DNA from: a virus
Taxonomy: Duplodnaviria; Heunggongvirae; Uroviricota; Caudoviricetes
Length of the DNA: 20,256 bases
IMG/VR virus record: IMGVR_UViG_2671180606_000002
Reading direction: 5' to 3' (one strand)
The notes beneath the pieces were generated by a model. The model searched no databases and had not been told where the DNA came from. It saw nothing but the letters and a program-made list of their open reading frames with translations. The first letter of the stretch is position 1. The number at the start of each line of letters is the position of its first letter. Of the stretch, positions 7,777 to 18,000 are shown one piece after another. The translations under genes and the position numbers were made by a program.

Positions 7777-7815
7777 CCCTCAAAAACACGCATTTATAAT
7801 GCATGTTTTTGAGGG
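7777..7815. promoter_or_regulatory. NsrR-box-like palindrome over the -10 and ribosome-binding region of the yeaR-like gene
   Basis: 17-bp inverted arms CCCTCAAAAACACGCAT / ATGCATGTTTTTGAGGG (one mismatch) around TTATA; core AACACGCATTT-A-TAATGCATGTT (7785..7807) matches my recalled 11-1-11 NsrR consensus with about 2 mismatches; TATAAT at 7795..7800; TTGACA at 7768..7773 is 21 bp upstream. Confidence 0.45.
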
Positions 7816-7822
7816 GGTGGTT

Positions 7823-8161
7823 ATGACACACAAGAGAATTCCTAAAGATTGGGTAATCAAACGCTCAACTCCGTTCTTCACAAAAGAGAACGTACCTTCA
7901 GCGTTATTAACACATCATAATACAGCAGCAGGTGTTTTTGGGCAGTTGTGCGTAATGGAAGGCACTGTAACATATTATGGTTTTACTGATGAGAATGCTA
8001 CTGAACCGGAGATAAAAGTAGTCATTAATGCTGGCGCTTTTGCAACAAGCCCACCACAATACTGGCACCGTGTTGAACTAAGCGATGATGCTCAGTTTAA
8101 TATTAACTTTTGGGTCGCTCCAGACTTCTCGGGCGAAAAAGTCTATAGCACCAAAAAATAG
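7823..8161 (+). CDS. YeaR-like protein (DUF1971, TehB N-terminal-like domain)
   Basis: 112-aa product from ATG at 7823 (GAGGGGGTGG Shine-Dalgarno); conserved blocks RSTPFF..P......H.T..G....L.V..G.V.Y.G..DE...EP.......AG.FA..PP..WH.......D..FNI.F.VAP align by eye to E. coli YeaR. Confidence 0.8.
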   Translation: MTHKRIPKDWVIKRSTPFFTKENVPSALLTHHNTAAGVFGQLCVMEGTVTYYGFTDENATEPEIKVVINAGAFATSPPQYWHRVELSDDAQFNINFWVAPDFSGEKVYSTKK

Positions 8162-8228: not shown

Positions 8229-8923
8229 TAAATATATTGGTTCTACATTGACAGGAGACTTCAACCATAAGAAGTAATCTGAATACTTGAGCAATAAATT
8301 TACTTAAGATTAATGAGCGCACCTTGCCGGACAAAGATAAACCAAGGTAACACCTTTTTTCTAGCCAGTATGTAATCAATCAGAAAGCCGCTCCATAAGA
8401 ACAACAGCAAGACAATAAATTGCCATTACAGCCGCAATAGCCAGCGCACATTTGAGAACCAGCACGACAACCCCCTGTATTAGACGCACACCAGTCCTGA
8501 TAAATATGAGGCTGTCTCGTCAGTGATTCAATACAACTATTGGGTATAGTTTCTGTGATTTTATTCTGTAGAAATGGAACACAACAACCAGTCACCACCA
8601 GCACTTCTTTAAATACGCCAAGTCCGACGCAAGCTAACCTTCTAGTCCGCTTTGAGCGAAAAGCGGACAGGAACATTCTGGTTAATAGATATCAATGCTA
8701 ACAAAAAAGCTCCCGATGGAGATTTTGAAACCGCTTCCACATAATGAAATAAAAGGATTTATTTCTGGTCATGCCCACACATTGACCACGTCGAAGTAAG
8801 TAGCTCCGCTTCGCGGAGTTACTTAAGATAATTTCTATGTAGTTCCATGCTATGATTTAATTTTCAAGTTACAAAATCTAAATCTACAAATGTCCATTTG
8901 GGTGTAAAATTACACAATCCTAT

Positions 8924-11297
<2,374 letters not shown>

Positions 11298-11369
11298 AGG
11301 ATTAATCCAAAATAAAGACCTTGTTGACTAAACCCTCATGTACAAAATGCACACTTACTCAAAAGGATC

Positions 11370-11390
11370 TGGAGGCAATCTCGACCTCCA
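11370..11390. promoter_or_regulatory. Perfect inverted repeat TGGAGG-N9-CCTCCA in the divergent intergenic region between the deaminase gene and the TetR-like gene
   Basis: Exact 6-bp arms with 9-bp spacer; positioned like an operator in a divergent regulator/operon arrangement; function not established. Confidence 0.3.
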
Positions 11391-11550
11391 TGATTTAGTT
11401 CCTAGGGATAAGCAGAAATCTAGCACTGGATTAAAATTTAAAAATAATAATCAATAGGTTATAATGGTTTTTATTCGCATCCATGGGATCTGCTGCTGCC
11501 CGCATGATGTTGGATGCGACGGCGCTGGCACGACCTCACCCGGTGAAACG

Positions 11551-11996
11551 ATGAAACGCGAAAGGGTTGTTCTTCGGGAAGGTGCAGTTGGACTTTCAAT
11601 CGATGACGTTGCAAAAGAGGCTGGCGTCAGTAAGGCAACGGTAATGTACGATCATAAGTCAAAGCAAGATTTGCTCAGCGATCTCATCAGTCGCCTTATG
11701 CCAGTAGAGGAGGAACGTGTTCAGCAAGCGATAGCGGAAAGTAATAATACCCCCACATCCCGCACTCTATGGGCGAATTATTTCAGCCAGTAATGCTCTC
11801 AGTCATACTGAGAGAGCAGTAGTGCTGGCGGTCAGCGAATCGTTAACTAACGATACGAATATCAGGGACACCATGCGTTCCTGCACAAACAAAGATTTGG
11901 ATGAGATAAAAAGAGGACCAAAACCAGACGTTGCCGTCCTGGTATATTTGGCGTTATCTGGTATCTACTGCCAAGAATTTTTTGATTTTTACAAAT
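11551..11996 (+). pseudogene. TetR-family transcriptional regulator, disrupted by frameshift (N-terminal HTH 11551..11793; C-terminal remainder continues in +1 frame to about 11996)
   Basis: N-terminal frame has a TetR-type HTH (LSIDDVAKEAGVSKATVMYDHKSKQDLL) and stops after 80 aa; the next frame continues ALSHTERAVVLAVSESLTNDT...LVYLALSGIYCQEFFDFYK without its own start; TATAAT at 11460..11465 upstream. Confidence 0.55.
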
Positions 11997-12271
11997 GATC
12001 TCCTGGCGAGCGAGATAAAATTATCGAAGGCATTCGCTGTTTGTATGAATCATACCCTTACAAGTCTGAATAAATAATGTCTCCGGGAATGACATTTCAT
12101 GTGCGACTAATTCGCGATATTCCTATACGTAAAGGTCCGCTTTTGGCACAAAGTGGACAACCACGCTAGCTCTACCCTGTGCCACAAAATGTCAATTTGC
12201 ATCTGAACTAATGCACTTTAATCTCGTCACTTCAATAAATACCGAACATCCCCCTGATAAAACGACAATAT

Positions 12272-17550: not shown

Positions 17551-18000
17551 ATGAGCACAAAACCACTCTTCCTGTTACGGAAAGCGAAAAAATCATCCGG
17601 TGAACCTGACGTCGTCCTGTGGGCAAGCAACGATTTTGAATCGACCTGTGCCACTCTGGACTACCTGATCGTTAAGTCAGGTAAAAAACTGAGCAGCTAT
17701 TTTAAAGCTGTTGCCACGAATTTTCCTGTCGTTAATGACCTGCCCGCTGAAGGTGAGATCGATTTTACCTGGAGTGAACGCTATCAACTCAGCAAAGACT
17801 CCATGACATGGGAACTAAAACCGGGAGCAGCACCAGACAACGCTCACTATCAAGGCAATACCAACGTCAACGGCGAAGACATGACTGAGATTGAGGAGAA
17901 TATGCTACTCCCAATTTCTGGCCAGGAACTGCCCATTCGTTGGCTTGCTCAACACGGCAGCGAAAAACCGGTACCCACGTCTATGCTGTCGCAAGACTGA
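17551..18000 (+). pseudogene. recE: recE (exonuclease VIII) N-terminal remnant, about 141 native codons then out-of-frame tail
   Basis: Translation begins [46 protein letters not shown], the RecE N-terminus as recalled, and ends after [10 protein letters not shown]; RecE should be over 800 aa. Confidence 0.85.

What the first reader, a model, noticed from the sequence alone, without database searches (positions are those of the whole stretch)
11298..11996. Frameshifted TetR-like regulator divergent from the defence operon, with a perfect inverted repeat between them
A TetR-type HTH ORF (11551..11793) stops after 80 aa and the C-terminal remainder continues in the +1 frame, so the regulator is likely inactive. 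It is divergently oriented to the deaminase-HAM1-SIR2 operon, separated by a control region containing TGGAGG-N9-CCTCCA (11370..11390) and a TATAAT at 11460..11465. If this TetR-like protein once repressed the operon, its decay could leave the defence genes constitutively expressed; alternatively it is an unrelated decayed cargo gene.
Basis: partly seen in the sequence, partly recalled or inferred. Interest (0 to 1): 0.5.

Follow-up and report, generated by a model that had tools for sequence, protein, structure and literature searches.

The report
Decayed TetR relic beside Kongming operon
The frameshifted TetR-like gene is real, but it is a dead gene fragment that travels next to the already characterised Kongming anti-phage operon in a Rac prophage, and nothing indicates that it ever controlled that operon.

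Summary
The 80-aa HTH ORF (11551..11793), its continuation in the +1 frame, the TGGAGG-N9-CCTCCA repeat and the TATAAT are all present. The frameshift is one extra C in a C-run (C5 at 11750..11754; C4 in every sampled E. coli genome). The same allele occurs in four independent assemblies, so it is a real mutation.

The "intact" allele was already a relic. Its conserved N-terminus is replaced by the antisense of a P2-type ogr remnant (11478..11567). TGA at 11996 replaces a conserved Trp and removes helix alpha9. dN/dS is about 1, against 0.07-0.28 for the neighbouring genes. Other lineages carry other disruptions.

The operon is the published Kongming system (KomABC). It is activated post-translationally by dITP, and was shown active from a construct described only as KomABC with its native promoter. 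A 97%-identical Citrobacter copy lacks the TetR fragment, as do 11 more distant KomABC operons. Native relatives of this TetR sit beside efflux pumps. The inverted repeat is no better than chance and looks at most like a weak terminator after ogr.

Verdict: an ordinary hitchhiking pseudogene.

Seen in passing: the cassette is bounded by two 25-nt palindromes that also flank other defence cargo in many prophages.

The parts
8645..8669 (.). Left border palindrome of the cassette: GTCCGCTTT-GAGCGA-AAAGCGGACA.
   Evidence: Direct/inverted repeat with 12135-12159 (D2 and I1). Homology to the copies in Providencia, Enterobacter and Citrobacter starts here.
8924..9718 (-). komC, the SIR2-like NADase effector of Kongming (264 aa).
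   Evidence: PF13289, E = 1.5e-26. H146 is present. The near-identical locus L035 is annotated WP_000436711.1, the KomC of the published system.
9718..10272 (-). komB, the catalytically dead HAM1-like dITP sensor (184 aa).
   Evidence: PF01725, E = 2e-39. N9, K12, E15 and the defensive-clade H65 are present. WP_001026099.1.
10269..11249 (-). komA, adenosine deaminase (326 aa from ATG 11249). The 342-aa ORF that runs to 11297 is a longer upstream extension.
   Evidence: PF00962, E = 1.4e-45. H15 and H17 fit the published numbering only with the 326-aa start. Differs from WP_023277476.1 by V30G.
11250..11477 (.). Region upstream of komA. It travels with the operon in all five genomic contexts and presumably holds the native komABC promoter, which was not located.
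   Evidence: 95-97% identical in L009, L010, L011, L038 and L039. A consensus scan finds no convincing minus-strand sigma-70 site.
11370..11390 (-). Inverted repeat TGGAGG-N9-CCTCCA. At most a weak terminator-like hairpin 88 bp downstream of the ogr remnant.
   Evidence: Flagged as terminator-like on the minus strand: TGGAGGTCGAGATTGCCTCCA followed by GATCCTTTTG. The frequency of such repeats is at chance level. The arms are kept in all copies, but the whole region is 95-97% identical anyway.
11437..11465 (+). Promoter-like TTTAAA-N17-TATAAT pointing towards the TetR fragment.
   Evidence: 10 of 12 matches, but the number of such sites is within the shuffle expectation. The hexamer is TACAAT in Providencia, with an indel upstream.
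11478..11567 (-). Remnant of a P2-type ogr gene: the last 30 codons only, without the zinc finger.
   Evidence: tblastn against Ogr of an E. coli P2-like prophage gives 24/30 identical, E = 2e-16. DNA matches H68-H70. The longer copy in Providencia hits PF04606 Ogr_Delta.
11544..11559 (+). 8-bp tandem duplication (TGAAACGA TGAAACGC) at the ogr/TetR junction. It creates the ATG at 11551.
   Evidence: Absent from L010; present in the E. coli and Enterobacter copies.
11551..11793 (+). Frameshifted 5' part of the TetR relic. It encodes 80 aa: the HTH and helix alpha4, then 13 out-of-frame residues.
   Evidence: RefSeq annotates the unshifted allele as a TetR/AcrR regulator, starting either at 11464 (177 aa) or at 11551 (148 aa).
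11750..11754 (+). C5 run, the site of the +1 insertion (codon 87 in the numbering of P0003).
   Evidence: C4 in EC5, MS15047 and L010; TCCCC in Providencia. The C5 allele occurs in four independent assemblies.
11755..11998 (+). Remainder of the TetR ligand-binding domain (helices alpha5-alpha8) in the +1 frame, ending at TGA 11996-11998. That TGA replaces the conserved Trp169.
   Evidence: TGG in L010 and Enterobacter, TGC in Providencia, TGA in all E. coli copies. Trp is at least 90% conserved in the family.
11999..12073 (+). Orphaned coding remnant for helix alpha9 (SPGERDKIIEGIRCLYESYPYKSE) with the ancestral stop TAA at 12071-12073.
   Evidence: alignments A2 and A6. The AlphaFold2 model of P0003 places alpha9 at residues 171-187.
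12135..12159 (.). Right border palindrome of the cassette: GTCCGCTTT-TGGCAC-AAAGTGGACA.
   Evidence: Homology to the other cassette copies ends at 12150-12158. Other Rac-like prophages share the flank from exactly 12160 onwards.

Best explanation
The feature is a pseudogene: a relic of a TetR/AcrR-family efflux-type regulator. It is passenger DNA inside a 3.5-kb mobile cassette (window 8645-12159), and the cassette's working cargo is the Kongming anti-phage system KomABC.

The cassette has this order on the map: left palindrome, komC, komB, komA, the komA upstream region, a 5'-truncated ogr gene from a P2-like phage, a 5'-truncated TetR gene, right palindrome. It sits in the cargo slot of a Rac prophage, between the replication genes and the ninB-like genes.

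The TetR relic has accumulated lesions stepwise:
1. Loss of its own promoter, operator and first 16-20 codons at the junction with ogr.
2. An 8-bp duplication at that junction.
3. TGG to TGA at codon 169 in the E. coli lineage, which removes helix alpha9.
4. In the sub-lineage of this window, a +1 C at codon 87, which removes helices alpha5-alpha9.

The relic does not regulate komABC. Kongming is expressed from its own upstream region and is kept silent post-translationally until a phage nucleotide kinase together with KomA produces dITP.

Shown here: the lesions, the mosaic junction, neutral evolution, the cassette's distribution and the identity of the operon. Inferred: the order of the lesions, and that the relic never regulated the operon.
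For: - Frameshift. One C insertion is the only difference from EC5 over 974 bp. It is the only indel against MS15047 over 19.7 kb apart from two large deletions and their junctions. The same allele is in four independent assemblies.
- N-terminus. Window 11478-11567 encodes the C-terminal 30 aa of Ogr on the opposite strand. The family's N-terminus MGRxRK..DDILDAA, at least 90% conserved in 39 members, is missing.
- C-terminus. TGA replaces Trp169. The AlphaFold2 model has nine helices, with alpha9 at residues 171-187 and block-mean pLDDT of 85-94 over residues 131-190. The reading frame for alpha9 is still visible after the stop.
- Neutral evolution. dN/dS of the TetR fragment is 0.83-1.4, against 0.07-0.28 for komA, komB and komC in the same cassette copies. 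Fisher test of non-synonymous against synonymous changes: p = 0.0018.
- Independent decay elsewhere. An A-run frameshift (P0002, P0007), another frameshift (P0009), N-terminally truncated ORFs (P0006; P0010 in Enterobacter), and a Cys codon plus a different junction in Providencia.
- Linkage. The TetR fragment travels with the cassette in the E. coli Rac prophage, an Enterobacter lambdoid prophage and two Providencia genomes, P. rettgeri and P. sneebia. The 97%-identical Citrobacter copy ends at 11531 and has no TetR.
- More distant loci. 11 more distant complete KomABC operons have no TetR of this family within 6 kb. Their upstream neighbours are unrelated: a YgjP-like peptidase, S24 peptidases, a SIR2 protein, Mrr, a methylase.
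- Native context. Full-length relatives (more than 680 proteins of 183-196 aa, largely Rhizobiales) lie beside RND or MFS efflux genes. They share an upstream CGAACG-N2-CGTTCG(GATAT) motif, which is absent from the window's control region.
- Composition. GC is 0.45-0.46 for the TetR fragment against 0.33-0.36 for the operon.
- Identity of the operon. KomABC residues H15/H17, N9/K12/E15/H65 and H146 are present. The RefSeq accessions in the near-identical locus equal those of the characterised system. That system was synthesised as "KomABC with its native promoter", protected MG1655, and is triggered by dITP (bioRxiv 10.1101/2024.12.20.629578). The paper mentions no TetR or other regulator.
Against: - The unshifted allele keeps an open frame of 148-177 aa with an HTH above the Pfam threshold, and RefSeq annotates it as intact. 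A residual DNA-binding activity cannot be excluded by sequence alone.
- The fragment is retained in four of five contexts of the near-identical cassette.
- The dN/dS estimates rest on only 10-23 substitutions per comparison.
- The paper does not state how much upstream sequence its construct contained, so absence of the TetR fragment from that construct is assumed, not shown.
- The komABC promoter was not located.
Confidence: 0.86

Rival explanations
1. The C4 allele is a working repressor of komABC. It binds the TGGAGG-N9-CCTCCA repeat, and the frameshift in this lineage derepresses the defence operon.
For: The arrangement is divergent, and the repeat lies between the genes. The HTH is above the Pfam cut-off. 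The fragment is linked to the operon in four contexts.
Against: - An ogr remnant separates the two genes, and the TetR gene has lost its own 5' end and upstream region.
- Helix alpha9 is missing even in the C4 allele.
- dN/dS is about 1.
- The Citrobacter copy and 11 more distant KomABC operons lack the TetR fragment.
- The repeat is at chance level, with 6-bp arms and a 9-nt spacer. It is unlike the candidate operator of the native clade.
- Kongming is controlled post-translationally by dITP.
Confidence: 0.05
2. The frameshift is a sequencing or assembly error in a homopolymer, and the gene in the source strain is the same as in the other E. coli genomes.
For: It is a single-base change in a homopolymer. 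None of the complete E. coli genomes sampled carries it.
Against: The identical C5 allele is present in three Logan assemblies of separate sequencing runs and in an NCBI draft assembly. The window has no other single-base indel against MS15047 outside the two deletion junctions over 19.7 kb.
Confidence: 0.03
3. The C-run is a phase-variable or programmed-frameshift site that switches the regulator on and off.
For: The change is a length change in a mononucleotide run. A second allele is shifted at an A-run.
Against: Runs of 4-5 bases are far below the lengths that give useful slippage rates (established knowledge of contingency loci). Every listed complete genome has C4, and the C5 copies are otherwise identical to one another, which fits a clonal lineage. 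The product being switched is already truncated and evolving neutrally.
Confidence: 0.02
4. The inverted repeat is a functional intrinsic terminator. It ends transcription coming from ogr (the end of the late operon of the ancestral P2-like phage) and insulates komABC.
For: On the minus strand it is a G+C-rich 6-7-bp stem followed by GATCCTTTTG, 88 bp downstream of the ogr remnant. Its arms are unchanged in all five contexts, while the loop carries one substitution in Citrobacter.
Against: The stem is short, the loop is long (7-9 nt) and there are only four T residues. The scan found 2 such sites against 0.9 +/- 1.0 expected. Conservation is uninformative at 95-97% overall identity. No homology to the region downstream of ogr was found in phage records.
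Confidence: 0.3

Closest known systems
Kongming defence system KomABC of E. coli NCTC13216 (Zeng et al., bioRxiv 10.1101/2024.12.20.629578; structure paper PMC13454610)
   Same: The neighbouring operon is this system. It has the same gene order and protein lengths (326, 184 and 264 aa) and the same functional residues. The same RefSeq protein accessions appear in the closest complete genome.
   Different: The window's KomA carries V30G. The publications do not mention the ogr and TetR remnants or the palindromic borders.
TetR/AcrR-family repressors of efflux pumps: the TetR_N + TetR_C_28 clade of 183-196 aa, mostly Rhizobiales, e.g. P0013 of Agrobacterium tumefaciens
   Same: 46-55% identity over helix alpha1 (second half) to helix alpha8. 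The HTH motif GLSIDAVAxEAGVSKxTVxYDHKSK and most core residues are the same.
   Different: The window's copy lacks the conserved N-terminal arm and the first half of alpha1. It lacks alpha9, is frameshifted at codon 87, has no efflux gene next to it and no candidate operator, and evolves neutrally.
Pseudogenes and gene remnants carried as passengers in prophage cargo ("moron") regions
   Same: Mosaic junctions, mixed GC content, truncated genes of unrelated origin side by side, and lineage-specific further decay.
   Different: Nothing essential. This is a typical example.
Ogr/Delta zinc-finger late-gene activators of P2-like phages (PF04606)
   Same: The 30 C-terminal codons are 80% identical to Ogr of an E. 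coli P2-like prophage.
   Different: Only a fragment remains: no zinc finger and no start codon. It is a fossil that marks an earlier P2-like location of the Kongming operon downstream of ogr (inference).

Membership tests
Functional TetR/AcrR-family regulator | N-terminal three-helix DNA-binding domain with an HTH (Pfam TetR_N) | tested here: inconclusive
   TetR_N scores 30.2 bits (cut-off 24), but only profile positions 11-45 of 47 are matched. The first half of helix alpha1 and the conserved arm MGRxRK..DDILDAA are replaced by unrelated residues from the ogr antisense strand.
Functional TetR/AcrR-family regulator | Contiguous C-terminal ligand-binding and dimerisation domain (helices alpha4-alpha9) in the same reading frame | tested here: not met
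   The +1 C at 11750-11754 shifts the frame after codon 87. Even the unshifted allele stops at codon 169 and so loses alpha9, residues 171-187 in the model. That alpha8 and alpha9 form the dimer interface of nine-helix TetR proteins is established knowledge, not tested here.
Functional TetR/AcrR-family regulator | Purifying selection on the protein | tested here: not met
   dN/dS is 0.83-1.4 between cassette copies, against 0.07-0.28 for komA, komB and komC. Fisher p = 0.0018.
Functional TetR/AcrR-family regulator | Palindromic operator in its own or the divergent promoter, conserved with the regulator | tested here: not met
   The motif shared upstream of native relatives, CGAACG-N2-CGTTCG(GATAT), has no match in 11275-11560. 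The window's few matches (the nearest at 11264-11274) are no more than chance. The 6-bp inverted repeat at 11370-11390 is itself at chance level. Binding was not tested.
Dedicated regulator of the Kongming operon | Conserved linkage with komABC across independent, divergent loci | tested here: not met
   Present only in near-identical copies of one cassette. Absent from the 97%-identical Citrobacter copy and from 11 more distant complete KomABC operons.
Kongming (KomABC) defence system, for the neighbouring operon | Gene order adenosine deaminase (PF00962), HAM1-like (PF01725), SIR2-like (PF13289) | tested here: met
   coordinates 10269-11249, 9718-10272 and 8924-9718.
Kongming (KomABC) defence system, for the neighbouring operon | KomA H15/H17; KomB N9/K12/E15 with His65 in place of the catalytic Asp; KomC H146 | tested here: met
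   All are present. The residues are those defined in the paper.
Kongming (KomABC) defence system, for the neighbouring operon | dITP-triggered NAD+ depletion and protection against phage | not testable with these tools
   Shown experimentally for proteins WP_023277476.1, WP_001026099.1 and WP_000436711.1. The same accessions are annotated in the closest genome. The window's KomA differs by V30G.
Intrinsic (Rho-independent) terminator, for the inverted repeat | G+C-rich stem-loop directly followed by a U-tract | tested here: inconclusive
   A stem of 6-7 pairs, a loop of 7-9 nt and the tail GATCCTTTTG on the minus strand pass the simple scan, but the scan found 2 sites against 0.9 +/- 1.0 expected.

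The most novel reading that the evidence does not exclude
The TetR relic marks the right end of a discrete cassette whose borders are two heterospecific 25-nt palindromes with 9-nt arms and a 6-nt spacer: GAGCGA on the left, TGGCAC on the right.

- Homology between cassette copies in unrelated contexts breaks inside these sites. The outer arm goes with the context; the spacer and inner arm go with the cargo.
- The same pair of sites brackets at least 25 different cargoes in prophage contigs, including PD-T7-1, an AbiH-like protein, PDC-S51, a pVip-like radical-SAM protein and transporters.

The most novel reading not excluded is that these are core sites of a dedicated site-specific recombination system. 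Such a system would swap defence cargo between lambdoid prophages and genomic islands, a natural analogue of recombinase-mediated cassette exchange. The alternative is that they are merely conserved hairpins or terminators at which homologous recombination happens to occur.
Probability: 0.25. Interest if true: 0.6.

Novelty: already known. Interest (0 to 1): 0.12.

Why it matters
For the finding itself, little.

- It removes a tempting but unsupported story, that a broken repressor makes a defence system constitutive.
- It shows that the "TetR/AcrR family transcriptional regulator" annotated as intact in about 80 complete E. coli genomes is a doubly truncated relic.
- It identifies the neighbouring operon as the type example of Kongming. 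Anyone using these strains should not expect TetR-dependent control.
- The ogr and TetR fossils record that this Kongming cassette once sat downstream of ogr in a P2-like phage, before spreading to Rac-like and lambdoid prophages and to Providencia and Citrobacter islands.

The palindromic cassette borders, seen in passing, could matter more. They may explain how defence cargo is exchanged at this prophage hotspot.

Tried and rejected
- Phage records. A search of 50,697 phage records with 11250-11575 in distant mode found no match. The region between komA and ogr could therefore not be traced to a known phage.
- Exact C5 39-mer in IMG/VR gave 0 hits. The allele was found instead by exact-protein look-up.
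- Consensus promoter scans for komA on the minus strand found nothing convincing. The promoter remains unlocated.
- A P2 late-promoter dyad (TGT-N12-ACA) upstream of komA was looked for by eye. Only TGT-N9-ACA is present, so an Ogr-dependent promoter was not pursued.
- The candidate native operator motif is absent from the control region at any level above chance.
- The PDB sequence search gave only generic N-terminal TetR matches, E of about 1e-5. The helix map was taken from an AlphaFold2 model instead.
- PADLOC has no model for KomA or KomB as a system. KomA hits only a CARF-ADA model and KomC hits ThsA-type SIR2 models. The identification as Kongming came from the literature.
- The paper and its supplement do not say how much upstream DNA the "native promoter" construct contained.
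- A full-text search for the border palindromes found only unrelated primer matches.
- Programmed frameshifting and phase variation were considered and rejected: the run is short, and the C5 copies form an otherwise identical (clonal) group.
Full report
**1. What is in the sequence**

The window is a Rac prophage of E. coli. The closest complete genome, MS15047, has intR, xisR, recET, racC, kilR, sieB, racR, ydaSTUV and trkG next to ttcA. It matches the window at 99.9-100% apart from two deletions.

On the minus strand lie an adenosine deaminase, a HAM1-like protein and a SIR2-like protein. On the plus strand, ATG 11551 opens an 80-aa ORF with a TetR-type HTH that stops at 11791-11793. The rest of a TetR ligand-binding domain continues in the +1 frame. 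TGGAGG-N9-CCTCCA (11370-11390) and TATAAT (11460-11465) are present.

**2. The frameshift**

- Over 974 bp the window differs from E. coli EC5 only by one extra C, giving C5 at 11750-11754 against C4 (run coordinates checked).
- Of 5,426 complete E. coli genomes, 80 carry the whole region. None is identical to the window, and every listed row is one base shorter.
- The mutation is nevertheless real. The exact 109-aa and 80-aa shifted products and the C5 39-mer are found in Logan assemblies of three separate runs and in NCBI GCA_001575615.1.
- Against MS15047 the window shows only 5-6 substitutions, this one indel and two deletion junctions over 19.7 kb. It is not an error-rich assembly.

**3. 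The "intact" allele is already a relic**

RefSeq annotates the C4 allele as a TetR/AcrR regulator of 177 aa (start 11464) or 148 aa (start 11551). Comparison with relatives shows otherwise. The clade has more than 680 members of 183-196 aa, mostly Rhizobiales. Two segments are at least 90% conserved: the N-terminus MGRxRK..DDILDAAERVV, and the C-terminal residues W169, L178, R182 and Y185.

- *N-terminus.* In the E. coli gene everything upstream of about ERVV/LREG is unrelated. Window 11478-11567 encodes, on the opposite strand, the last 30 residues of a P2-type Ogr protein (24/30 identical; DNA matches). In Providencia rettgeri the same remnant is longer and hits Pfam Ogr_Delta.
- *Junction.* An 8-bp duplication at the junction (11544-11559) creates the ATG at 11551. 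It is absent from metagenome copy L010.
- *C-terminus.* TGA 11996-11998 replaces the conserved Trp. The codon is TGG in L010 and Enterobacter and TGC in Providencia. The frame behind it still spells SPGERDKIIEGIRCLYESYPYKSE before the ancestral stop at 12071-12073.
- *Structure.* An AlphaFold2 model of the most complete copy (P0003; mean pLDDT 77, with block means of 85-94 over residues 131-190) has nine helices, with alpha9 at 171-187. The E. coli allele therefore lacks alpha9. The window's allele lacks alpha5-alpha9.

**4. Neutral evolution and repeated decay**

Between cassette copies, dN/dS of the TetR fragment is 0.83-1.4. For komA, komB and komC in the same copies it is 0.07-0.28. The excess of non-synonymous changes is significant (Fisher p = 0.0018). 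The fragment's nucleotide identity to Providencia is also lower than the operon's, 95.6% against 97.5%.

Other lineages carry other disruptions: a frameshift at an A-run (P0002, P0007), a further frameshift (P0009), and ORFs that have lost the N-terminal part (P0006; P0010 in Enterobacter).

**5. Is it linked to the operon?**

- Within E. coli, the fragment and the operon co-occur one to one (81 and 81 genomes). All copies are at least 99% identical, so this is one clonal cassette and not independent evidence.
- The same cassette, window 8645-12159, is found at 95-97% identity in four other places. These are an Enterobacter bugandensis lambdoid prophage, a Providencia rettgeri island, Providencia sneebia, and a metagenome contig.
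- In Citrobacter sp. JGM124 the 97%-identical operon and its upstream region end at 11531, inside the ogr remnant, next to an integrase gene. There is no TetR.
- 11 more distant complete KomABC operons (46-57% KomA identity) have no TetR of this family within 6 kb. Their upstream neighbours are unrelated to one another.
- Native full-length relatives lie beside MFS or RND efflux genes. They share an upstream CGAACG-N2-CGTTCG(GATAT) motif, which the window's control region does not contain.
- GC content also separates the fragment (0.45-0.46) from the operon (0.33-0.36).

**6. The operon is Kongming**

A literature search identified the three-gene system as Kongming (KomABC).

- The functional residues are all present: KomA H15/H17, KomB N9/K12/E15 with His65, and KomC H146. 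The numbering shows that KomA starts at 11249, giving 326 aa.
- The proteins annotated in MS15047 carry the very accessions listed for the characterised system of E. coli NCTC13216. The window's KomA differs by V30G.
- According to the paper, a synthesised "KomABC with its native promoter" protects MG1655. Activation comes from dITP, made when a phage nucleotide kinase acts together with KomA. No regulator is mentioned.

A transcriptional repressor is therefore not needed to explain how the system is kept silent. The extent of upstream DNA in that construct is not stated, which is a caveat.

**7. The inverted repeat and the TATAAT**

- Perfect 6-bp inverted repeats with loops of 3-20 occur in 83% of dinucleotide shuffles of the intergenic region (mean 2.4), and at 2.1 per 226 bp across the window.
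- The arms are unchanged in all copies, but the whole region is 95-97% identical, so this says nothing.
- On the minus strand the repeat is followed by GATCCTTTTG and passes a simple terminator scan. It lies 88 bp downstream of the ogr remnant. If it has any function, a weak terminator inherited with ogr is the most likely one.
- The TTTAAA-N17-TATAAT site is within the chance expectation and is degraded in Providencia.
- No convincing komA promoter was found by consensus.

**8. Conclusion on the finding**

The best explanation (confidence 0.86) is an ordinary pseudogene carried as passenger DNA in the Kongming cassette. The frameshift is the latest of several lesions and has no expected regulatory consequence. 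The repressor hypothesis is not supported, with a residual probability of about 0.05. Sequencing error (0.03) and phase variation (0.02) are unlikely.

**9. Seen in passing: cassette borders**

- The cassette ends in two 25-nt palindromes in direct orientation: GTCCGCTTT-GAGCGA-AAAGCGGACA (8645-8669) and GTCCGCTTT-TGGCAC-AAAGTGGACA (12135-12159).
- Homology between cassette copies in different contexts breaks inside them. The outer arm varies with the context, while the spacer and inner arm stay with the cargo.
- Other Rac-like prophages carry other cargo between the same two sites.
- In IMG/VR contigs I found 47 ordered left-right pairs, with at least 25 cargo size classes from 448 to 6,739 bp. 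Most have low GC. They include PD-T7-1, an AbiH-like protein, PDC-S51 and a pVip-like radical-SAM protein.
- No description of these sites was found in the held literature.

They could be recombinase core sites for cargo exchange. Alternatively they could be conserved hairpins at the position of lambda tR2, with exchange by homologous recombination. I could not decide between the two.

Noticed in passing
window 8645-8669 and 12135-12159; also L009, L011, L038, L040-L042 and IMG/VR loci L047-L276: Two 25-nt palindromes (9-nt arms; 6-nt spacers GAGCGA and TGGCAC) bound the Kongming cassette exactly where homology to other contexts breaks. The same ordered pair brackets at least 25 different cargoes in prophage contigs, many of them defence genes (PD-T7-1, AbiH-like, PDC-S51, pVip-like). 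This suggests a cargo-exchange hotspot with defined recombination sites. No recombinase was identified, and no literature was found.
   Followed up: partly
window about 15455 (junction), compared with L035 15947-17185: The window lacks 1.24 kb that in MS15047 holds the 5' end of ydaT, all of ydaS and racR. This is the repressor/toxin module whose repressor is reported as essential in K-12 (abstract of PMC5700373, listed). Toxin and repressor appear to have been lost together.
   Followed up: no
window about 17968-17980 (junction), compared with L035 19713-22378: A 2.67-kb deletion removes most of recE and the 5' two-thirds of recT relative to MS15047. This is further decay of this Rac copy.
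   Followed up: no
window 11161 (komA codon 30): A substitution inside a C-run (GGCCCCCCC against GGACCCCCC) changes KomA Val30 to Gly relative to the experimentally characterised protein WP_023277476.1. Other E. coli genomes share the window's allele: 100% operon matches such as ET210. The effect on activity is unknown.
   Followed up: partly
window 10269-11297 against 10269-11249: The longest komA ORF (342 aa, start 11297) is 16 codons longer than the published and RefSeq KomA (326 aa, start 11249). Only the shorter start fits the H15/H17 numbering.
   Followed up: yes
window 7799-8161 and 8380-8676: A DUF1971 (TehB-like) gene lies in the left flank of the cassette slot and is shared with other Rac-like prophages. 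A 98-aa minus-strand ORF with no family match overlaps the left border palindrome. Neither is part of the cassette.
   Followed up: no
L009 1710-1734 (Providencia rettgeri island): A further palindrome with the GAGCGA spacer (GTCAGATTTGAGCGAGAAGCAGACA) lies 3.2 kb from the cassette's left border, in an island that also holds a HEPN/Toprim gene, an HNH gene, a type I restriction-modification system and an integrase. The sites are therefore not confined to lambdoid prophages.
   Followed up: no
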